Assembly (NCBI RefSeq): GCF_016026235.1
Contig: NZ_CP065613.1
DNA: 64,000 nt
From: Escherichia coli
GTDB lineage: Bacteria; Pseudomonadota; Gammaproteobacteria; Enterobacterales; Enterobacteriaceae
Direction: 5' to 3' (one strand)
Part shown: one piece after another, positions 7,416 to 54,786 of the stretch
How positions within the stretch are numbered: position 1 is the first letter of the stretch
How the letters are laid out: the number at the start of each line of letters is the position of its first letter
Made by a program: the position numbers and the translations under genes
Notes under the pieces: generated by a model
What the model saw: only the letters and a program-made list of their open reading frames with translations
Database searches by the model: none
What the model was told of the DNA's origin: nothing

Positions 7416-8841
7416 TAATGCCAGTCAGTTAAGCAACTGACTGGCTCTTTTTCGGGGCTGTGGGGTATTTCCAGGGCCTCTCCTTTACCACTCTCGGGAA
7501 GGCCCTTCCCCTTCTCGTCGGTAATTTCACAAGTTGTCCCATACTTGCAAGATCGCGCATCAGCTCCGGTATACGTCCCGGTGAAGCGCCCTGCAATGTC
7601 ATCAGCATTCTCATCACCATTCCGCATGATTCTGAGAAACTCAGTTGATTCGGCCAGTAACCTTTCAGATGTTCCGCCATTTTAATCATCTGATATCTCA
7701 CCAGATTATAAGCCAGTAAGACACCCCACAGCTCTTGCTCCACAAGCTCCGGCTTTTTACTTCTCAGCGTCAGCCTGCTCAGTTGCATCGTCTGTTTTAT
7801 CTCCCTGTATCCCAGTTCGATTTCCCAGCGATGACTGTACAGATCCGCCATTTCTCCTCTGGGGAAGCGCATGGCGTCCGTCATCGACGTCAGCAGATGG
7901 CAGACTTTTCCTTTGCGCGTCACGGTCAGCAGGCGGGCTGTCACTTCATTTCCCAGTCCCGGCCACTTTTTTCGTGCCTGCGGGCTGGTTTTCAGCTTCA
8001 CCAGATGATCGCCTTTACCCAGTTTTCTGAGCTCTTCATATTGCGCTCCCTTTCTGAGAGGTATCATCCAGTGGCGGTGTTCTCCCGCCAGGCTCCAGGC
8101 ATTTAACAGTCCCAGTGAGTAATAACCTTTATCCATTAACGTCAGAGTGTTATCGCCGGTTTGTTCTATAAGTTGCTCAGCAAGCTCATTTTCGCTGTTC
8201 TTCATCGTGCCGAAGGCTGCAGCCGTCAGCAGATGGCTGGTCAGTTCCATCTGGCAGACCATTTTGACCTGCGGGTAGAGCGCCGGGTTCCCGGCATGTG
8301 TCTGGCGGGGGAAGGCTGCATCGTTCTCTGGTGTATCCGGTGTGCGCCAGAACACACCATCGATGGCCAACAGGGTCAGGCCGCACCAGTGCGGATGCGG
8401 CGTGGCGTTATGCCAGAGCTGCGCTGTTTTCGTGAACACGCGGCGGACAGCCTCACTTCCCAGGCGCTGGCGGGCCTGAATAACGGCACTGGGGGCAACG
8501 AAGGGGCGATTGCCCGGCAGCATGATGTCCAGGCGATTCACAATCTGGTGAAGAGGTTCTTTACGCTCAAGCGCCATGCCAACAATACACCAGACCATCA
8601 TTTCGAGGGGAAGACGGCGCTTGCGTAGCGTTACAGTACCTGATTCGGCAAGGCAACGAGAGATGAGTTCGGGGTCGAGGTAATCCCCCAGAGAAGTCAG
8701 TGGGTTACGCAGAGAATCGTAACGGGATACCAGATCAAGAGCCTGTCCAATGTGCATAAAAAAATCCGGAAACAAGTGAGCGTTTCCGGATTCTTACACA
8801 GCCACTGGATCGGTCAACTGATCCTTAACTGATCGGCATTA
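7416..8841 (-). mobile_element. Insertion sequence IS4 (1426 bp)
   Basis: Element length 1426 bp; 18-bp imperfect terminal IRs taatgccagtcagttaag (7416-7433) and cttaactgatcggcatta (8824-8841); 12-bp flanking direct repeat; encodes 442-aa transposase. Confidence 0.93.
7429..8757 (-). CDS. insG: IS4 transposase InsG
   Basis: ORF 7429..8775; start taken at [26 protein letters not shown]... (442 aa), recognised as IS4 transposase. Confidence 0.92.
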
Positions 8842-8861: not shown

Positions 8862-9713
8862 TTATGCTTCCGCCAGCGGCGGCAAAATCAATTCATCGCT
8901 CTCATGCTGCTGGGTGTAGCGCATCACTTCCAGTACGCGCAACCCCGCGCGGTGCACCGCATCGGTTAACGCCTTCCCTTTCAGCAAGCCACTGATGAGC
9001 TGAGCACAAAACTGGTCGCCAGTCCCTTTCAGGTCGGTTTTTACCCGTGAATGGGAAATGACATTCACGCTGTCGGCAGTGACCACCACAACCTGCATCT
9101 CCTGATTTTCTTCATTACCGGAGGCGCTGGTAATCACCACCCATTTTAGTGTGTCTGAAAGCAGACTTTTTGCGGCAGCAATGGCACTGTCGAGATCGCG
9201 GCAATTTTTACCGGTCAGGATTTCCAGCTCAAAGATATTGGGGGTAATTCCCTGCGCCAGCGGCAGTAAATATTGTCGATACGCCTCGGGAAGGTCAGGT
9301 TTGACATAAATTCCGCTATCAATATCGCCAATCACCGGATCGACCATGATCAATAGATCAGGATGGTCTTTGCGTAGCGCAGTCAGCCACTCGGCAAGGA
9401 TTTTGATTTGCGATGCCGTTCCCATATAGCCCGTGGTTACAGCACGAAGTTGGCGCAGCGCATCACGCTCCTGAAGCGCACGCAAATAGCCGCTAAACCA
9501 TTCGTCCGGAATCGCACCACCGTAGAAAGTGTCATAATGCGGCGTATTGCTCAGCAATACCGTCGGCACGGCAAAGACATTCAGGCCGTTCTGTTTGATA
9601 GCAGGCACGGCAATGCTGTTGCCTACGCTGCCGTACACTACCTGCGACTGCACGGCGACGATATCCGCCTGCAGTGCCCTGCTCTTATCGTTAAACAACA
9701 ACAAACTACTCAT
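8862..9713 (-). CDS. pdxK: Pyridoxal/pyridoxine/pyridoxamine kinase
   Basis: 283-aa [39 protein letters not shown]... Confidence 0.94.
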
Positions 9714-42775: not shown

Positions 42776-43063
42776 TTGGTTGTTCCTTTCACGTAACGTT
42801 CACAAATAAAGTGTGTGGGCAACAGCCCCTGCCCACAACGTGGCGCACATTATTACCTTGCCGGAGTCTACAGACTTTGAGCAAGTCCAAACTCTCACCA
42901 TTAATATAATGTTTTGGTAATAATCCTATAACACTGATGTTACCTGCTTAATCCAGCAATACCATGCCTGTCTGCTATGCTTTTTTGATGCGTTTAGCGA
43001 AATTTCTCAGAAGTGTGAATTAACGCACTCATCTAACACTTTACTTTTCAAGGAGTATTTCCT

Positions 43064-44014
43064 ATGAACGAGTTAGACGGCATCAAACAGTTCACCACTG
43101 TCGTGGCAGACAGCGGCGATATTGAGTCCATTCGCCATTATCATCCCCAGGATGCCACCACCAATCCTTCGCTGTTACTCAAGGCTGCCGGATTATCACA
43201 ATATGAGCATTTAATAGACGATGCTATCGCCTGGGGTAAAAAAAATGGCAAGACCCAGGAACAACAGGTGGTCGCAGCGTGTGACAAACTGGCGGTCAAT
43301 TTCGGTGCTGAAATCCTCAAAATCGTACCCGGTCGCGTGTCAACAGAAGTTGATGCACGCCTCTCTTTTGATAAAGAAAAGAGTATTGAGAAGGCGCGCC
43401 ATCTGGTGGACTTGTATCAGCAACAAGGCGTTGAGAAATCACGCATTCTGATCAAGCTGGCTTCGACCTGGGAAGGAATTCGCGCGGCAGAAGAGCTGGA
43501 AAAAGAAGGTATTAACTGCAACCTGACGCTGCTGTTTTCTTTTGCACAGGCACGGGCCTGTGCGGAAGCAGGCGTTTTTCTGATTTCGCCGTTTGTCGGG
43601 CGTATTTATGACTGGTATCAGGCACGCAAACCGATGGACCCGTATGTGGTGGAAGAAGATCCGGGCGTTAAATCGGTGCGCAATATCTACGACTACTATA
43701 AGCAACACCACTATGAAACCATTGTGATGGGCGCGAGCTTCCGTCGCACCGAACAAATCCTCGCCTTAACCGGCTGCGATCGACTGACTATCGCACCGAA
43801 TTTGCTGAAGGAGGTGCAGGAAAAAGTTTCGCCAGTGGTACGTAAATTAATCCCACCTTCTCAGACGTTCCCACGCCCAGCTCCCATGAGCGAAGCGGAG
43901 TTCCGTTGGGAGCACAATCAGGATGCGATGGCGGTAGAAAAACTGTCTGAAGGCATTCGTCTGTTCGCCGTTGATCAACGCAAACTGGAAGATCTTCTTG
44001 CCGCCAAACTATAA
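43064..44014 (+). CDS. talA: Transaldolase A
   Basis: 316-aa [46 protein letters not shown]... Confidence 0.96.
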
Positions 44015-45131
44015 ACCAGCCACGGAGTGTTATATGTCCCGAAAAGACCTTGCCAATGCGATTCGCGCACTCAGTATGGATGCGGTACAAAAAGCCAATT
44101 CTGGTCATCCCGGCGCGCCGATGGGCATGGCTGATATTGCCGAAGTGCTGTGGAACGATTTTCTTAAACATAACCCTACCGACCCAACCTGGTATGATCG
44201 CGACCGCTTTATTCTTTCCAACGGTCACGCGTCGATGCTGCTCTACAGTTTGCTACATCTGACCGGTTACGACCTGCCGCTGGAAGAACTGAAGAACTTC
44301 CGTCAGTTGCATTCGAAAACCCCTGGCCACCCGGAAATCGGCTATACGCCCGGTGTTGAAACCACCACCGGTCCACTTGGACAAGGTTTGGCGAACGCCG
44401 TCGGACTGGCGATAGCAGAGCGTACACTGGCGGCGCAGTTTAACCAGCCGGATCATGAAATTGTCGATCACTTCACCTATGTGTTTATGGGCGACGGCTG
44501 CCTGATGGAAGGTATTTCCCACGAAGTCTGTTCGCTGGCGGGCACGCTGGGACTGGGCAAGCTGATTGGTTTTTACGATCACAACGGTATTTCGATTGAT
44601 GGAGAAACCGAAGGCTGGTTTACCGACGATACGGCAAAACGTTTTGAAGCCTATCACTGGCATGTGATCCATGAAATCGACGGTCACGATCCGCAGGCGG
44701 TGAAGGAAGCGATCCTTGAAGCGCAAAGCGTGAAAGATAAGCCGTCGCTGATTATCTGCCGTACGGTGATTGGCTTTGGTTCGCCGAATAAAGCAGGTAA
44801 GGAAGAGGCGCACGGCGCACCACTGGGGGAAGAAGAAGTGGCGCTGGCACGGCAAAAACTGGGCTGGCACCATCCGCCATTTGAGATCCCTAAAGAGATT
44901 TATCACGCCTGGGATGCCCGCGAAAAAGGCGAAAAAGCGCAGCAGAGCTGGAATGAGAAGTTTGCCGCCTATAAAAAGGCTCATCCGCAACTGGCAGAAG
45001 AGTTTATCCGTCGGATGAGCGGTGGTTTACCGAAGGACTGGGAGAAAACGACTCAGAAATATATCAATGAGTTACAGGCAAATCCGGCGAAAATCGCTAC
45101 CCGTAAGGCTTCGCAAAATACGCTTAACGCT

Positions 45132-46649
45132 GATATGACTTTCCGTGTCAAACCGGAATCTCTAATTTTGACGATTTTCTTTTTAGGTTTAATTCCCTGA
45201 GGGCGACGTAGCAGTAAATCCGACGGTGAATCACGCTGATATTCGCGGGTTGGATACCGCATTACAGAGGTCCGTCATATGAGCCTGCCACTTTCTTACG
45301 TCGCGAATCAGCTTTGTTCCGCCGTCGCCAAGCGCTAACGTGGGTTACTCTTGTACCGGGCTACGTCGCCTTCAGGGAACTGGTTATTCTCATTTTTTAT
45401 TTGTGACATTGTGGTTGTTGTGCGACAGACATTGCTATTCGGCCCATATCCCAGATAAAACCCGCCAGCTCACGTGCAACAGCAACAATTGTAATATTGA
45501 CATTCTTTCCTTTGGCCTGAAGTTTTCGATACCTCTTACAAAGCCTGAGTTGAGCATCCCATGCTCTGTCAATGACGGGGCGGGGTAAATTTTCCTGCCT
45601 TTTTTGTATTGCCGGACTGATGCGTGCCGGATGACGGTAACTCCACGCTGCCTCGACCAATAGCTTTCTGGCATAGCTGTTTCCGGCTTTGGTAATGCTG
45701 CCCTGATGTCTGCTTCCACCCGATGAATATTCTGATGGCGTGATACCAAACCATGACATCAGTTGTCGTGGATGTTCAAAACGGGTCAGATCACCCAGTT
45801 CAGAAATTAATCCAACCGCAGTAATAAACTGAATCCCTCGCATGGCTTGCAGCGCCTCTACTACCGGATACAGCCTCCATTCGGTAACGGCCTCCTTCAG
45901 GGCGGATTCCAGCCGTTCACATTGTGCCTGCCGGTCTTCTATTGTACGACGGTGTTCGTCAAAAGCTAATTGTCGCCAGGGACTTTCGAATGAGTATTTG
46001 CTGAGCCAGCGTCGGTGTGCAGGGCCCCAATCTGCTCGCCCGACATAATGGACCCCATGAACCAGAAGAAACGATTTCAGACGTTGCCTTGCATGCCGTA
46101 AATCATCGCGGGCAGATGCCCATGCCCGGGCCAAATCCCGGAATGCCTCATCTTCAATGCCGGGTACGTAGACAGCAGAAAGATCTCCTGCACGCAGTGA
46201 ACGCACAAGTCTGATGGCATCACGGCGATCGGTTTTAACCCGCTCCCCCGGTTTTTTCGGGATAAGTGAGGGGGCGCAGACCATGCAGTCAAAACCGGAT
46301 TTCACCAGCCGACGATAAAGTCCATAACCACAGGGCCCCGCTTCATAAACGATACTGACCTGCGATGACTTTGACCTGAGACGTTTACAAAGATTCTGAA
46401 TATCAGTAGGTGATGTGCCAATTTTACCCATCAGTTCAACAGGTTCTGAATTGATAGCATAAGCGACAGTAATCGATTCTTTGTGAACATCTAACCCGAC
46501 GTACAATGTGTTATTGTTGTTCATGCTGGCCTCCGTGGTGGAAATACCGGGGTGTAGCAACAGCTCACCCATGCGGCTCTGACAACGATGTTAACCCGCG
46601 TTAAATATCCCACGTTGGCCAGCATCTGTCTCACGGAAAGTCATACTGC
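45132..46649 (-). mobile_element. IS110-family insertion sequence (IS1111-subgroup-like; ~1.52 kb) with 14-bp subterminal inverted repeats
   Basis: Insert between tktB halves; CT dinucleotide at both junctions (45130-45131 and 46650-46651), no longer duplication; perfect subterminal IRs tatgactttccgtg (45134-45147) and cacggaaagtcata (46632-46645); single DEDD-type transposase ORF; 265 bp non-coding 3' of tnp. Confidence 0.8.
45397..46524 (-). CDS. IS110-family (DEDD-type) transposase/recombinase
   Basis: ORF 45397..46572; start taken at MNNNNTLYVGLDVHKESITVAYA... (375 aa) with GGAGG 7 nt upstream; YVGLDVHK N-terminal motif typical of the IS110 family. Confidence 0.85.
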   Translation of the reverse strand: MNNNNTLYVGLDVHKESITVAYAINSEPVELMGKIGTSPTDIQNLCKRLRSKSSQVSIVYEAGPCGYGLYRRLVKSGFDCMVCAPSLIPKKPGERVKTDRRDAIRLVRSLRAGDLSAVYVPGIEDEAFRDLARAWASARDDLRHARQRLKSFLLVHGVHYVGRADWGPAHRRWLSKYSFESPWRQLAFDEHRRTIEDRQAQCERLESALKEAVTEWRLYPVVEALQAMRGIQFITAVGLISELGDLTRFEHPRQLMSWFGITPSEYSSGGSRHQGSITKAGNSYARKLLVEAAWSYRHPARISPAIQKRQENLPRPVIDRAWDAQLRLCKRYRKLQAKGKNVNITIVAVARELAGFIWDMGRIAMSVAQQPQCHK

Positions 46650-47597
46650 CTTACGGGCCGATGCTACCGGAGCTGCTCGGCGGTTCGGCGGATCTGGCTC
46701 CCAGCAACCTGACCATCTGGAAAGGTTCTGTTTCGCTGAAGGAAGATCCGGCGGGCAACTACATTCACTACGGGGTGCGTGAATTTGGCATGACCGCTAT
46801 CGCCAACGGCATTGCGCACCACGGCGGCTTTGTGCCGTATACCGCAACGTTCCTGATGTTTGTTGAATACGCCCGTAACGCCGCGCGGATGGCGGCACTG
46901 ATGAAAGCGCGGCAGATTATGGTTTATACCCACGACTCAATTGGTCTGGGCGAAGATGGTCCGACGCACCAGGCTGTTGAGCAACTGGCCAGCCTGCGCT
47001 TAACGCCAAATTTCAGCACCTGGCGACCGTGCGATCAGGTGGAAGCGGCGGTGGGCTGGAAGCTGGCGGTTGAGCGCCACAACGGACCGACGGCACTGAT
47101 TCTCTCCAGGCAGAATCTGGCCCAGGTGGAACGTACGCCGGATCAGGTTAAAGAGATTGCTCGTGGCGGTTATGTGCTGAAAGACAGCGGCGGTAAGCCA
47201 GATATTATTTTGATTGCCACCGGTTCAGAGATGGAAATCACCCTGCAAGCGGCAGAGAAATTAGCGGGAGAAGGTCGCAATGTTCGCGTAGTTTCCCTGC
47301 CCTCGACCGATATTTTCGACGCCCAGGATGAGGAATATCGGGAGTCGGTGTTGCCTTCTAACGTTGCGGCTCGCGTGGCGGTGGAAGCAGGTATTGCCGA
47401 TTACTGGTACAAGTATGTTGGTCTGAAAGGGGCAATTGTCGGGATGACGGGTTATGGGGAATCTGCTCCGGCGGATAAGCTGTTCCCGTTCTTTGGCTTT
47501 ACCGCCGAGAATATTGTGGCAAAAGCGCATAAGGTGCTGGGAGTGAAAGGTGCCTGATGGTGATCGCCGGATGCTGATTGCCGGATGCGACGCTGAC

Positions 47598-48505
<908 letters not shown>

Positions 48506-49088
48506 TCCAGGAGATGCTCCTGCATGGCTTTCAGATATGCATTTTCTGCGCGAAGATAACGCAGCTCATTCTTCATCTCTTCCGGCGTCATGTTTCCCTC
48601 GTTTTCATGGGTATCATTAGAACGGGTCATGCTTTTCTCCTTCCTGCGCCTGATAAAGGCCTCATTACCAGATTTGCGGTAGCCTTTTATCCAGTTTTTA
48701 ACCATGTTGTGGCTGGGAATGTTAAACCGGGCAGCTACCCGGGGTAGAGACTCAGAATGCCCGAGAGCATAAAGAACCACGCAAAGTTTATCTTCAGGAG
48801 AATAGCTACGCTTGTGTCTGCAATCCAGTGCCTGAGGACCGTGAAGAAGAAAAAGATTAATCCAGTGTGAGAGGCTGGTGTGAGAAAGTTGAAAGAGTTT
48901 TGCCGTAGAAATGATGCCTGCATGACCGGCCAGGTAATGATTTACAGCGGCAAGTTTTACTTCAAATGAATGTTTCATAAACTGCACCTTCAGATGTCAG
49001 ATTATGTCCAACATTTGGGGTGCAGTTCATGACGCGTCTTATCCGGCCTACAGCGTCTTAACCGGTCTACATGTCCCCGCTATTTTGT

Positions 49089-50132
49089 TTAACGGGTGAT
49101 CCACAACGTGGGCCAGGCGTCTGGCCCATGCCAGTTATCGCAGGTGGGTTCTGCGGCGTAACGCACCAGGCGAAAACGCTGACCGTCAAAGCGCCAGCGC
49201 GCCTGAATGCCACAATCGCTTAATCCGCGCCCTTTCGCTAAGGTCACCAGCTCACGCGATTTCTCATCAAATGTTGCGTTCATCAGTTCCAGTTCATTCG
49301 TCTCCTGACCGTTGTTGAACGGCAAACGCAACCGAACCGGGCGCGAGGCCAGCGGCTTTTTACGCGACACAATCCATGCCAAATCAATGGTGTTATAGGC
49401 CCCTGCCTCACAGCTAATCATCATCAGCGCTTTATCATCAGTCAGCGCAGTGACATTCACCTCACGACGCAATGGATCAAGCGAGCAGCGCAGACCATTC
49501 ATCCGCCAGTTTCCATAATCCAGCAAATCGTTGCGTTCTTCGAGTGAGAGTGGCGTCGGCGTTGGGTTAACCACCGCGACCTCTTTCAGCGCAGGCGCGG
49601 GCGGTACGCTGAGCGGCGGTTCGTCCCCTTTCTTTATCCACGCGGTTTCACTGCCAACGCGCTTTTGCTGAGCATCAATAAACAACAACGCCGCTTTTAA
49701 GCCACTCAGAGAAATGGTCTGATTGCCGTCGCGTAAGGTGATCGCCTTCCCTTCCTGAATCATCTGCAAAAACGCGGTGATGGTTGCCGTATCATCGGTT
49801 ACTAATAACCATGGTGAAATCCGCCACTTGTCACCACTTAACGCCAACGGCTCACCATCTAACAGCAGCCGTGGCGCTATCTCCCCTTCAGACGCATCCG
49901 GCGATTTCAACCCGCCGCGCTCAATACGTAAAACGGCATCGGTATGCGCCCCGGCGCTGCGGCTCAGGGTCATCACCAGTCCATTATGATCGCCCGTATT
50001 GCGCGCCACGCAGAAGTTTTGGTTATTACAGGTGACCTGCCAGTCGGAAAACGCCCGTTGCGCTGGTGCCGCCCACACCAAAGACGTCGGCAACAAAGCG
50101 AAAAAAAAGAGAAGGAAAATGCGATAGCGCAT
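49089..50132 (-). CDS. ypfG: DUF1176 periplasmic protein YpfG
   Basis: 347-aa ORF MRYRIFLLFFFALLPTSLVWAAPAQRAFSDWQVTCNNQNFC... with signal peptide. Confidence 0.9.
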   Translation of the reverse strand: MRYRIFLLFFFALLPTSLVWAAPAQRAFSDWQVTCNNQNFCVARNTGDHNGLVMTLSRSAGAHTDAVLRIERGGLKSPDASEGEIAPRLLLDGEPLALSGDKWRISPWLLVTDDTATITAFLQMIQEGKAITLRDGNQTISLSGLKAALLFIDAQQKRVGSETAWIKKGDEPPLSVPPAPALKEVAVVNPTPTPLSLEERNDLLDYGNWRMNGLRCSLDPLRREVNVTALTDDKALMMISCEAGAYNTIDLAWIVSRKKPLASRPVRLRLPFNNGQETNELELMNATFDEKSRELVTLAKGRGLSDCGIQARWRFDGQRFRLVRYAAEPTCDNWHGPDAWPTLWITR

Positions 50133-53085: not shown

Positions 53086-54786
53086 GTGATTGTTAAACGA
53101 CCCGTCTCGGCCAGTCTGGCCCGGGCCTTTTTTTACATTGTGCTGCTGTCGATTCTTTCCACGGGTATCGCTCTGCTAACTCTGGCGAGCAGTTTGCGCG
53201 ACGCTGAGGCTATCAATATTGCCGGATCGCTGCGTATGCAGAGTTACCGCCTGGGCTACGACTTGCAAAGTGGCAGTCCACAACTCAATGCACATCGCCA
53301 GCTGTTTCAGCAGGCACTGCATTCACCGGTATTAACCAATCTCAACGTCTGGTATGTGCCAGAAGCAGTAAAAACTCGCTATGCGCATCTGAATGCCAAC
53401 TGGCTGGAGATGAATAATCGTCTCAGCAAGGGCGACTTGCCGTGGTATCAGGCCAATATTAATAACTATGTTAATCAGATAGACCTGTTCGTGCTGGCTT
53501 TACAGCACTACGCTGAACGCAAAATGCTGCTGGTGGTGGCGATTTCCCTAGCTGGCGGCATCGGTATTTTCACGCTGGTCTTTTTTACTTTGCGCCGCAT
53601 ACGCCATCAGGTGGTTGCCCCGCTGAATCAGCTGGTTACCGCCAGTCAGCGTATTGAACACGGGCAGTTCGACTCGCCGCCGCTGGATACCAGCCTGCCG
53701 AATGAGCTTGGTCTGCTTGCAAAAACCTTTAACCAGATGTCGAGCGAGCTGCATAAATTGTACCGTTCGCTGGAGGCGTCAGTAGAAGAAAAGACTCGCG
53801 ATCTCCACGAGGCCAAGCGTCGTCTGGAGGTGTTGTATCAATGTTCGCAGGCGCTGAACACCAGCCAGATTGATGTGCATTGTTTCCGCCATATTTTGCA
53901 GATTGTTCGCGACAATGAAGCGGCTGAATATCTGGAGTTAAATGTCGGTGAAAACTGGCGGATTAGCGAAGGGCAACCAAACCCGGAATTGCCGATGCAG
54001 ATTTTACCGGTGACAATGCAAGAGACGGTTTACGGCGAACTGCACTGGCAAAATAGTCACGTTTCATCATCAGAACCGCTGCTTAACAGCGTTTCGTCGA
54101 TGCTGGGACGCGGTTTGTACTTTAATCAGGCGCAGAAGCATTTTCAGCAGTTATTGTTGATGGAAGAACGTGCAACCATCGCCCGCGAATTGCACGACTC
54201 GCTGGCTCAGGTACTTTCTTACTTACGTATCCAGTTGACGTTACTTAAGCGTTCGATACCGGAAGATAACGCCACCGCACAAAGTATCATGGCCGATTTT
54301 TCCCAGGCGTTGAATGATGCTTATCGGCAGTTACGCGAGCTGTTGACTACTTTCCGCCTGACGCTGCAGCAGGCGGATCTCCCCTCCGCGTTGAGGGAAA
54401 TGCTGGATACGTTACAAAATCAAACCAGCGCCAAACTGACCCTCGACTGCCGTCTGCCAACCCTGGCGCTGGATGCGCAAATGCAGGTGCATTTGTTGCA
54501 AATTATTCGCGAAGCGGTGCTGAATGCGATGAAGCACGCCAACGCCAGCGAAATCGCCGTCAGTTGCGTCACCGCGCCGGACGGCAATCACACGGTTTAT
54601 ATCCGTGATAACGGGATTGGTATCGGTGAACCGAAAGAACCCGAAGGTCATTATGGTCTGAATATCATGCGCGAACGCGCGGAACGGCTAGGTGGGACGC
54701 TGACTTTTTCACAACCTTCCGGCGGCGGCACGTTAGTGAGTATTAGCTTTCGCTCTGCGGAGGGTGAGGAAAGTCAGTTGATGTAA
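53086..54786 (+). CDS. narQ: Nitrate/nitrite sensor histidine kinase NarQ
   Basis: ORF track 53071..54786; start taken at GTG 53086 giving (M)IVKRPVSASLARAFFYIVLLSIL... (566 aa); GTG at 53071 is an alternative. Confidence 0.93.
   Translation: MIVKRPVSASLARAFFYIVLLSILSTGIALLTLASSLRDAEAINIAGSLRMQSYRLGYDLQSGSPQLNAHRQLFQQALHSPVLTNLNVWYVPEAVKTRYAHLNANWLEMNNRLSKGDLPWYQANINNYVNQIDLFVLALQHYAERKMLLVVAISLAGGIGIFTLVFFTLRRIRHQVVAPLNQLVTASQRIEHGQFDSPPLDTSLPNELGLLAKTFNQMSSELHKLYRSLEASVEEKTRDLHEAKRRLEVLYQCSQALNTSQIDVHCFRHILQIVRDNEAAEYLELNVGENWRISEGQPNPELPMQILPVTMQETVYGELHWQNSHVSSSEPLLNSVSSMLGRGLYFNQAQKHFQQLLLMEERATIARELHDSLAQVLSYLRIQLTLLKRSIPEDNATAQSIMADFSQALNDAYRQLRELLTTFRLTLQQADLPSALREMLDTLQNQTSAKLTLDCRLPTLALDAQMQVHLLQIIREAVLNAMKHANASEIAVSCVTAPDGNHTVYIRDNGIGIGEPKEPEGHYGLNIMRERAERLGGTLTFSQPSGGGTLVSISFRSAEGEESQLM

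What the first reader, a model, noticed from the sequence alone, without database searches (positions are those of the whole stretch)
44034..47557. tktB (transketolase 2) is inactivated, and its 3' fragment is bracketed by two different IS elements
The tktB frame runs normally for 366 codons, then reads 22 foreign codons into the IS110-family insert and terminates at 45200. The C-terminal 298 codons (46661-47557) are intact but separated. The IS1397-like element starts only 40 bp past the tktB stop, so two unrelated IS elements lie within 4 kb. Loss of TktB leaves TktA as the sole transketolase. Clustered IS insertions could mark a locus under relaxed selection or a hotspot.
Basis: partly seen in the sequence, partly recalled or inferred. 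Interest (0 to 1): 0.35.

Follow-up and report, generated by a model that had tools for sequence, protein, structure and literature searches.

The report
tktB split by RNA-guided ISSso6
The minor transketolase gene tktB of this E. coli strain is broken by a recent insertion of the known mobile element ISSso6, which landed there because tktB carries a near-perfect copy of the short sequence that the element's own guide RNA seeks. This is an ordinary gene-inactivation event, not a special hotspot.

Summary
tktB (44034-47557, +) is interrupted after codon 366. The frame reads 22 foreign codons and stops at 45200, and the 3' part is intact. The insert (45132-46649, 1518 bp, transposase on the minus strand) is ISSso6 of the IS110 family, with IS1111-type layout. 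The element 40 bp past the tktB stop (47598-49029, 1432 bp) is IS1397, sitting in the loop of a REP palindrome with a TGAC duplication.

The "hotspot or relaxed selection" reading is not needed. Each IS went to its own specific target. IS1397 is known to insert into REP sequences. ISSso6 encodes a conserved seekRNA/bridge-RNA-like structure downstream of its transposase. Its two variable guide segments co-vary with the flanking DNA in 40 relatives (0 of 10,000 permutations reach the observed score). They specify TTARCGCTTACGT, and tktB has TTAACGCTTACGG (12 of 13).

The closest complete genome, FDAARGOS_943, is 99.95% identical across the window. It shares the IS1397 copy but has an intact tktB, and both tktB halves are 100% identical to that gene, so the insertion is recent. 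None of 5426 complete E. coli genomes has this junction. The exact truncated protein is already public (WP_073801380.1) on 8 contigs, which argues against an artefact. Known elements, known mechanism, dispensable isozyme: low interest.

The parts
43064..44014 (+). talA (transaldolase A, 316 aa), intact. It is the upstream gene of the talA-tktB operon.
   Evidence: ORF; annotated tal in the syntenic locus of FDAARGOS_943.
44034..45131 (+). tktB 5' fragment, codons 1-366 (thiamine-diphosphate-binding domain). The frame continues 22 codons into the IS and stops at 45198-45200.
   Evidence: 100% identical to nt 1-1098 of the intact tktB; PF00456 E=4e-173; ORF list.
45130..45131 (.). Core dinucleotide CT at the left junction. 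The same CT occurs at 46650-46651, while the uninterrupted gene has it once.
   Evidence: 2-nt overlap of the two flank alignments. CT flanks both ends in almost every ISSso6 copy examined; the exceptions are the left flanks ending ...GACGCC (L012-L014, L024) and L023, whose left flank lacks the AACGCT.
45132..46649 (-). ISSso6 (IS110 family, IS1111-type layout), 1518 bp counting one core copy. It is 100% identical to a copy in FDAARGOS_943.
45134..45147 (.). Subterminal inverted repeat at the right end (TATGACTTTCCGTG), 2 nt from the IS end. Its partner is at 46632-46645, 4 nt from the other end.
   Evidence: Read from the sequence. The subterminal repeat plus the TTGACA motif is conserved in relatives.
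45193..45381 (-). 189-nt region downstream of the transposase gene, inferred to encode the seekRNA/bridge-RNA-like guide RNA. It has a long closing stem and two sub-domains.
   Evidence: MFE -88 kcal/mol for the non-coding region. Alignment with 40 relatives at 83% mean column identity, with discrete hypervariable windows. Consensus structure of 43 pairs, 5 with compensatory changes. No Rfam family matches.
45330..45338 (-). T guide (RNA 5'-UUAGCGCUU-3'), on the 5' side of the internal loop. It is complementary to the IS-top strand of the target across the core and the right flank.
   Evidence: Hypervariable column block in A1. It co-varies with the right flank in relatives: 112.5 of 156 versus 57.9±5.7 when permuted, 0 of 10,000 permutations.
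45295..45301 (-). B guide (RNA 5'-ACGUAAG-3'), on the 3' side of the same internal loop. It has the same sense as the left flank plus core, so it pairs with the bottom strand.
   Evidence: (65 of 112 versus 36.4±4.4 when permuted, 0 of 10,000 permutations).
45231..45242 (-). Conserved AUAUCAG(CGUGA) segment in the second RNA sub-domain. It is identical to the IS right end plus core (…CATATC|AG). I take it as a candidate donor-binding element; this is inference.
   Evidence: In L002, a partial tandem copy of the IS is joined exactly at this internal sequence.
45397..46524 (-). ISSso6 transposase gene, 375 aa, intact (DEDD/RuvC-like domain plus PF02371 C-terminal domain).
   Evidence: Same length and position as the PGAP CDS WP_001063816.1 in identical copies.
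46650..47557 (+). tktB 3' fragment (nt 1097-2004, codons 367-667 from 46652). The longest ORF is 46661-47557 (298 aa).
   Evidence: 100% identical to the intact gene; Transket_pyr plus Transketolase_C domains.
47578..47597 (.). Left half of the REP palindromic unit GCCGGATGCGACGCTGAC. The right half, GCGTCTTATCCGGC, follows the IS at 49034 onward. The IS3-family target duplication TGAC is at 47594-47597 and 49030-49033.
   Evidence: Empty site in strain 33F4 compared with the window; junctions.
47598..49029 (-). IS1397 (IS3 family), 1432 bp, with inverted repeats TGAACTG[A/C]ACCCCAAA. orfA is 48457-48987 and orfB (integrase core) is 47630-48352, with a programmed frameshift.
   Evidence: PGAP annotates 'IS3-like element IS1397 family transposase' at the same site in GPEC1446. 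FDAARGOS_943 has the same insertion, 99.93% identical.
49089..50132 (-). ypfG (DUF1176), intact, the downstream neighbour.

Best explanation
tktB was inactivated by a single, recent, simple insertion of the catalogued insertion sequence ISSso6. ISSso6 is an IS110-family element with IS1111-type layout: a DEDD transposase, 14-bp subterminal inverted repeats, and a 265-nt non-coding region downstream of the transposase gene. That region encodes a structured RNA of the seekRNA/bridge-RNA kind. One internal loop carries a 9-nt guide (UUAGCGCUU) and a 7-nt guide (ACGUAAG). Together they specify the target 5'-TTARCGCTT-ACGT-3' (window + strand) around a CT core. tktB codons 363-368 read TTAACGCTTACGG, which matches 12 of 13 positions, one of them through a G·T wobble. 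The element therefore integrated there, in the fixed orientation and without a target duplication. The neighbouring IS1397 is an older, independent event at its own preferred target, the loop of a REP palindrome in the tktB-ypfG spacer. The result is a 388-aa truncated TktB (PP domain plus a 22-residue foreign tail) and a separated, probably untranslated, Pyr/C-terminal fragment. The strain probably relies on TktA. Shown here: anatomy, element identities, target consensus, guide-flank covariation, presence or absence in relatives. Inferred: that the RNA is made and guides the recombinase, that TktB activity is lost, and that TktA compensates.
For: Both flanks abut exactly in the intact gene with a 2-nt CT overlap, and both are 100% identical to it.

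The insert is 99.9-100% identical to annotated ISSso6 copies, and the transposase has PF01548 and PF02371.

About 15 different ISSso6 insertion sites from complete E. coli genomes and metagenomes share the oriented flank consensus (c)gTT(a/g)ACG-CT-TAC(g).

The downstream non-coding region aligns with 40 relatives as a conserved scaffold with discrete hypervariable windows. Those windows lie on the two sides of one internal loop. They co-vary with the right and left flanking DNA of each relative, about 9.6 and 6.6 SD above permuted pairings, with 0 of 10,000 permutations reaching the observed score.

The T-before-B order, subterminal repeats, downstream non-coding region and lack of duplication match the experimentally characterised IS1111-type seekRNA systems (PMC11187229).

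The tktB site is the only perfect TTARCGCTTAC in 50 kb of the uninterrupted relative, and it is conserved in three other strains' tktB.

FDAARGOS_943 is 99.95% identical across the window. It has the IS1397 copy but an intact tktB.

IS1397 sits in a REP loop with a TGAC duplication, and its REP specificity is published.

The exact 388-aa truncated product is on 8 public contigs, including two assemblies read here. One contig breaks inside the IS, as short-read assemblies do.
Against: There are no expression data for the RNA and no transposition assay for ISSso6, so guide function rests on covariation and on analogy with ISEc11, ISPa11 and ISKpn4.

The transposase (375 aa) is longer than the 330-350 aa quoted for typical IS1111-family members.

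FDAARGOS_943 carries at least 14 ISSso6 copies and the same perfect tktB site, yet the site is empty there. No other complete genome uses it. A matching target is therefore necessary but far from sufficient.

Some of the 8 contigs may be re-sequencings of one strain.

tktA and read-level data are outside what I could examine.
Confidence: 0.9

Rival explanations
1. The tktB-ypfG region is an insertion hotspot or a locus under relaxed selection, and that is why two unrelated IS elements cluster within 4 kb.
For: Two IS elements lie within about 4 kb. tktB is a minor, RpoS-dependent isozyme whose single loss gives no strong phenotype. The lineage is IS-active: three further IS differences between the window and FDAARGOS_943 in 64 kb. 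IS1397 occupies the same REP in three somewhat diverged strains: FDAARGOS_943, GPEC1446 and NCTC10444.
Against: Each IS sits precisely on its own sequence-specific target. The IS1397 copy is intergenic and harms no gene. The two events differ in age. 0 of 5426 complete genomes have ISSso6 in tktB, although 40 genomes carry full-length ISSso6 and the motif is conserved. Both tktB halves show no further decay, being 100% identical to the intact allele.
Confidence: 0.1
2. The insertion is an assembly artefact: a repeat copy misplaced into tktB.
For: ISSso6 is multicopy in this lineage (at least 14 places in FDAARGOS_943). Multicopy repeats are where mis-joins occur. I could not inspect reads.
Against: Both junctions have the exact ISSso6 termini and core CT at a 12/13 cognate target in the correct orientation, which a random mis-join would not produce. 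The same junction, as the exact 388-aa product, is in at least two separate public assemblies: a 3.2-Mb contig with 1 mismatch in 9167 nt, and a draft contig identical over 5327 nt. It is on 8 contigs in all.
Confidence: 0.02
3. The split gene still yields activity. The 388-aa N-terminal product and a 298-aa C-terminal product would assemble like the naturally split two-gene transketolases of some bacteria and archaea.
For: Both fragments keep open frames and complete or nearly complete domains. Natural split transketolases exist (my own knowledge, not tested here).
Against: The cut lies inside the Pyr domain: the C-terminal ORF starts at profile position 20 of 174. No Shine-Dalgarno sequence is evident before the ATG at 46661, and the promoter-like scan found no site reading into the 3' fragment, with site counts at chance level. 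1.5 kb of antisense IS lies between the fragments.
Confidence: 0.03

Closest known systems
IS1111-type seekRNA-guided insertion sequences (ISEc11, ISPa11, ISKpn4; Siddiquee et al. 2024, PMC11187229) and IS110 bridge-RNA recombinases (IS621)
   Same: DEDD/RuvC-like transposase with the PF02371 C-terminal domain. Subterminal inverted repeats. Long non-coding region downstream of the transposase gene. Oriented, duplication-free insertion at a short specific target. An RNA with one segment complementary to the top strand, located 5' of a segment complementary to the bottom strand. Natural reprogramming among relatives, where guide and flank change together.
   Different: ISSso6 itself is not mentioned in the main text of that paper (supplements not checked). 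Its transposase is 375 aa, versus 330-350 aa typical for IS1111. Its close relatives are almost all in Burkholderiaceae. No experimental RNA or transposition data exist for it here.
ISEc21 (IS110 family), which targets a conserved site inside IS3-family transposase genes
   Same: Several ISSso6 copies sit at one conserved site inside IS66-family transposase (tnpC) genes. This is IS-in-IS targeting with occasional hits in host genes.
   Different: The target family differs (IS66, not IS3). The non-coding region is downstream, not upstream, and the guide order is opposite.
IS1397 insertions in REP/BIME palindromic units (Clément 1999; Wilde 2001, 2003, as cited in PMC1525189)
   Same: 1432-bp IS3-family element with a two-ORF frameshift transposase, inserted in the central loop of a REP unit with a 4-bp duplication.
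   Different: Nothing notable. This copy is shared with FDAARGOS_943 and found at the same REP in GPEC1446 and NCTC10444.
IS-mediated pseudogenisation in IS-rich E. coli/Shigella lineages (e.g. Hawkey et al. 2020, PMC7373316)
   Same: A dispensable metabolic gene is knocked out by a multicopy IS, with IS content differing between close relatives.
   Different: The hit here comes from a highly site-specific, RNA-guided IS at a near-cognate site. It does not come from the low-specificity IS1/IS600-type elements that dominate Shigella genome decay.

Membership tests
ISSso6 (as named by NCBI PGAP) | Near-identity over the full length to annotated ISSso6 copies | tested here: met
   99.9-100% identity over about 1530 nt to more than 20 copies annotated 'IS110-like element ISSso6 family transposase'. 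100% identity over 1528 nt to a FDAARGOS_943 copy. The ISfinder reference sequence itself was not available.
IS110 family | DEDD (RuvC-like) transposase with an N-terminal PF01548 domain and a C-terminal PF02371 domain | tested here: met
   PF02371 E=8e-24 and PF01548 E=2e-11, both above the gathering cut-off.
IS1111-type subgroup | Subterminal inverted repeats with short terminal extensions | tested here: met
   Perfect 14-bp TATGACTTTCCGTG, 2 nt and 4 nt from the ends. Conserved in relatives.
IS1111-type subgroup | Long non-coding region downstream of tnp | tested here: met
   265 nt downstream versus about 125 nt upstream of the annotated ATG at 46524 (measured 122 nt from one codon further upstream).
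IS1111-type subgroup | Transposase length 330-350 aa and clustering with IS1111 transposases | tested here: inconclusive
   The transposase is 375 aa, outside the quoted range. No phylogeny with IS1111 and IS110 reference proteins was made.
seekRNA/bridge-RNA-guided targeting | [quoted passage not shown] | tested here: met
   Guides at 45330-45338 and 45295-45301. tktB matches 8 Watson-Crick pairs plus 1 wobble of 9, and 6 of 7. Permutation tests gave 0 of 10,000 for both guides. The guides lie on the two sides of one internal loop.
seekRNA/bridge-RNA-guided targeting | The RNA is transcribed, binds the transposase and is required for transposition | not testable with these tools
   Needs RNA-seq, co-purification and transposition assays.
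seekRNA/bridge-RNA-guided targeting | Oriented insertion without a target-site duplication | tested here: met
   All copies have the same flank orientation. Only the 2-nt core is ambiguous, and no net duplication occurs if one CT is counted as part of the IS.
IS1397 (IS3 family) | About 1.4-kb element with TG… inverted repeats, orfA/orfB with a programmed -1 frameshift, rve integrase core, and a 3-4 bp duplication | tested here: met
   1432 bp, inverted repeats TGAACTG[A/C]ACCCCAAA, TGAC duplication. HTH plus rve domains. PGAP annotates 'programmed frameshift'. 99.7% identical to an annotated IS1397.
IS1397 (IS3 family) | Insertion into the loop of a REP palindromic unit | tested here: met
   Empty site GCCGGATGCGACGCTGAC|GCGTCTTATCCGGC in strain 33F4. 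Specificity documented in PMC1525189.
tktB (transketolase 2) | Transketolase domains plus talA-tktB synteny between maeB and ypfG | tested here: met
   Pfam domains. Gene order maeB-talA-tkt-ypfG-nudK-aegA-narQ. Both halves are 100% identical to the 667-aa gene of FDAARGOS_943.

The most novel reading that the evidence does not exclude
ISSso6 and its Burkholderiaceae relatives form an experimentally uncharacterised clade of RNA-guided IS110/IS1111-type recombinases. Its guide code (9-nt T guide plus 7-nt B guide around a CT core, tolerating a G·T wobble and distal mismatches) can be read directly from natural guide-flank covariation. The tktB event would then be a documented natural near-cognate hit of such a system in a core-metabolism gene. 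That is useful as a real-world data point on the specificity limits of bridge/seekRNA recombinases.
Probability: 0.75. Interest if true: 0.3.

Novelty: already known. Interest (0 to 1): 0.17.

Why it matters
For the strain, it means loss of the stationary-phase transketolase isozyme, with probably little phenotype as long as tktA is intact. It also gives a lineage marker separating it from its close relative FDAARGOS_943. More generally, clustered IS elements need not indicate a hotspot or decaying locus. Here two site-specific elements each found their own target: a REP loop, and a 13-nt RNA-specified motif that happens to lie in a coding sequence. The ISSso6 guide-target analysis also offers a small natural dataset on mismatch and wobble tolerance of an RNA-guided recombinase.

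Tried and rejected
- An Rfam scan of 43000-50000 at E≤1 gave no hit, so no curated family covers this RNA.
- A metagenome scan for the ISSso6 end found 8 loci, none in tktB. These were useful only as extra target sites.
- The junction query and the whole-locus query against 5426 complete E. coli genomes found no genome with the insertion.
- A promoter and terminator scan of 44900-46900 gave counts at chance level and no outward promoter toward the 3' fragment.
- Literature searches for tktB pseudogenes in Shigella and for accession LSGL00000000 returned nothing useful. I therefore did not establish the pathotype of the source strain.
- I tried to decode the second (donor-binding) RNA sub-domain. 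Only the conserved AUAUCAG match to the right end plus core was convincing, and I found no clear complement to the left end, so I left it as inference.
- The single-sequence MFE fold pairs part of the guide regions. I rejected it in favour of the alignment-based structure.
- My regular-expression extraction of guides mis-registered four relatives (L030, L050, L055, L080). I kept them in the test, which makes it conservative.
Full report
**1. Observation**

The ORF map and sequence show talA (43064-44014) followed by a transketolase frame starting at 44034. I aligned the window against the intact 2004-nt tktB of the nearest complete genome, E. coli FDAARGOS_943 (locus L001).
- Window 44034-45131 is identical to nt 1-1098.
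- Window 46650-47557 is identical to nt 1097-2004.
- The two alignments overlap by a 2-nt CT.

The insert is therefore 45132-46649, 1518 bp counting one CT. The interrupted frame reads 22 foreign codons and stops at 45198-45200. The downstream ORF 46661-47557 (298 aa) is intact, and by homology 301 codons are retained. Pfam places Transketolase_N in the 5' product and Transket_pyr plus the C-terminal domains in the 3' ORF. Gene order is maeB-talA-tkt-ypfG-nudK-aegA-narQ, which identifies the gene as tktB.

**2. The two elements**

*The insert.* It encodes a 375-aa protein on the minus strand (45397-46524) with PF01548 (DEDD_Tnp_IS110) and PF02371. It is 99.9-100% identical to copies that PGAP annotates as 'IS110-like element ISSso6' in E. 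coli chromosomes and pINV-type plasmids.
- It has perfect 14-bp subterminal inverted repeats (TATGACTTTCCGTG at 45134-45147, partner at 46632-46645).
- It has a 265-nt non-coding region downstream of the transposase gene.
- This is the IS1111-type layout described by Siddiquee et al. 2024 (PMC11187229).

*The downstream element.* It spans 47598-49029 (1432 bp).
- Its inverted repeats are TGAACTG[A/C]ACCCCAAA.
- It has an HTH orfA and an rve orfB.
- It has a TGAC duplication.
- It is 99.7% identical to a PGAP-annotated IS1397 at the same position in strain GPEC1446, and 99.93% identical to the copy in FDAARGOS_943.

Comparison with the empty site in strain 33F4 shows that it lies in the loop of a REP palindromic unit, GCCGGATGCGACGCTGAC|GCGTCTTATCCGGC. 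That is the experimentally established target of IS1397 (PMC1525189).

**3. Why ISSso6 is in tktB**

I collected flanks of ISSso6 copies from complete E. coli genomes and eight metagenome contigs. They give an oriented consensus (c)gTT(a/g)ACG-CT-TAC(g) with CT on both sides. Several copies sit at one site inside IS66-family tnpC genes.

A scan of species-representative genomes found 77 loci encoding relatives of the transposase, most of them 70-81% identical, nearly all in Paraburkholderia, Caballeronia, Cupriavidus and Burkholderia. Their downstream non-coding regions align with that of ISSso6 at 83% mean column identity, as a conserved scaffold interrupted by short hypervariable windows.

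The consensus structure has 43 pairs, 5 with compensatory changes.
- It has a 19-bp closing stem and two sub-domains.
- In the first sub-domain, a 9-nt window lies on the 5' side of an internal loop and a 4-nt window plus [A/T]AG lies on the 3' side.
- Across relatives, the 9-nt window is the reverse complement of the DNA just right of the element. The observed score is 112.5 of 156, against 57.9±5.7 for permuted pairings.
- The 4-nt window equals the DNA just left of the element. The observed score is 65 of 112, against 36.4±4.4.
- No permutation of 10,000 reached either observed value.

This matches the seekRNA arrangement shown experimentally for IS1111-type elements, where the top-strand match lies 5' of the bottom-strand match.

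For ISSso6 the guides are UUAGCGCUU (45330-45338) and ACGUAAG (45295-45301). Together they specify TTARCGCTTACGT on the window + strand. tktB reads TTAACGCTTACGG, which is 12 of 13 with one G·T wobble. This is as good as or better than most of the other sites; only the L003 IS66 site scores higher on both guides combined.
- In 50 kb of the uninterrupted FDAARGOS_943 locus, the only perfect TTARCGCTTAC is this tktB site.
- In the window no perfect site remains, because the element has split the tktB one.
- The motif is conserved in tktB of three other strains.

Inferred, not shown: that the RNA is transcribed and guides the recombinase. Rfam has no family for it.

**4. Age, reality and distribution**

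FDAARGOS_943 matches the window at 99.94-99.97% throughout, with 23 mismatches in about 62 kb.
- It shares the IS1397 copy.
- Its tktB is intact.
- The two genomes also differ by an IS4-like insertion (window only) and an ISEc60/ISSso6/IS66 cluster in pdxK (FDAARGOS_943 only). IS activity is therefore ongoing in this lineage.

The two tktB halves have no further mutations, so the ISSso6 insertion is recent and IS1397 is older. None of 5426 complete E. coli genomes has the junction, although 40 genomes carry full-length ISSso6.

The exact 388-aa truncated product is already public as WP_073801380.1, 'transketolase family protein [Escherichia coli]', on 8 contigs. Two were read here:
- A 3.2-Mb contig of GCA_901482675.2, with 1 mismatch in 9167 nt.
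- A 36.8-kb contig of GCA_001907535.1, identical over 5327 nt and ending inside the IS.

Together with the cognate-target junctions, this makes an assembly artefact very unlikely.

**5. Consequences**

According to the literature:
- TktA supplies 70-90% of transketolase activity.
- tktB single mutants lack the ribose sensitivity of tktA mutants.
- Only the double mutant is auxotrophic (PMC3905653).
- talA-tktB is RpoS-dependent (PMC4393010).

Loss of TktB should therefore be well tolerated. talA upstream is intact. The transposase runs antisense to tktB, and the scan shows no promoter reading into the 3' fragment. Reconstitution from two fragments is improbable. tktA lies outside the window, so 'sole transketolase' remains an inference.

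**6. Interpretation and verdict**

The suggestion of a hotspot or relaxed selection is not needed, because two site-specific elements each hit their own target at different times. Dispensability of tktB is permissive only.

Everything here is of a known kind: known IS elements, a known targeting mechanism for the family, and a truncated protein already in public databases. The modest added value is the reading of the ISSso6 guide code from natural covariation, and a natural example of a near-cognate hit in a housekeeping gene.

Interest is low (0.17). Novelty: already known.

Noticed in passing
window 7416-8841: A 1426-bp IS4-like element (448-aa ORF on the minus strand, inverted repeats TAATGCCAGTCAG…/…GATCGGCATTA, 12-bp duplication cgcccatcggcg) is inserted in the terminator-like hairpin between crr and pdxK. 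It is absent from FDAARGOS_943.
   Followed up: partly
window ~9242-9252; L019 4331-10520 (FDAARGOS_943): pdxK is uninterrupted in the window. In FDAARGOS_943 it is split by a 5.3-kb cluster of ISEc60, ISSso6 and an IS66-family element. That ISSso6 copy is 100% identical to the one in the window's tktB.
   Followed up: partly
window 32561-32740: The window has one extra ~100-bp REP/BIME unit (a tandem repeat of a REP pair) in the eutG-eutH spacer relative to FDAARGOS_943.
   Followed up: partly
window 53086-54786: narQ is intact in the window (566 codons). In FDAARGOS_943 it is annotated as frameshifted and differs by a 4-nt indel.
   Followed up: partly
L028-L104 (genome-contig loci): The closest relatives of the ISSso6 transposase (mostly 70-81% aa identity) are almost exclusively in Burkholderiaceae. 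The only Enterobacterales species representative with a hit was a 109-aa fragment in Acerihabitans arboris. ISSso6 is 49.7% GC. This suggests an old transfer from Betaproteobacteria into the E. coli/Shigella gene pool.
   Followed up: no
L002, L003, L004, L010, L012-L014, L024, L025: Many ISSso6 copies sit at one conserved site (…CTCCGTT[G/A]ACGCT|) inside IS66-family tnpC genes. This is IS-in-IS targeting, like ISEc21 in IS3 elements. Left and right flanks are often from different genes, which suggests later rearrangements between copies.
   Followed up: partly
L002 ~1500-1610 (FDAARGOS_943 chromosome 282151-283789): A 106-bp partial copy of the ISSso6 right end is joined head-to-tail to a full copy. 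The join falls exactly at the internal sequence ATATCAGCGT, which mimics the right-end/flank junction. This may be recombinase action on the DNA that encodes its own RNA's putative donor-binding segment.
   Followed up: no
L015, L027: A 1523-bp ISSso6 variant (~98.6% identical) sits at a divergent left flank (…CATTCACT). It could carry an altered guide.
   Followed up: no
statistics: 1205 of 5426 complete E. coli genomes contain some ISSso6-like sequence, but only 40 have a full-length copy. Most carry remnants.
   Followed up: no
window 48618 (L105 position 8585): There is a single-base difference inside the IS1397 copy between the window and GCA_901482675.2. The gene call for orfB there is 200 aa, against a 240-aa ORF in the window.
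   Followed up: no
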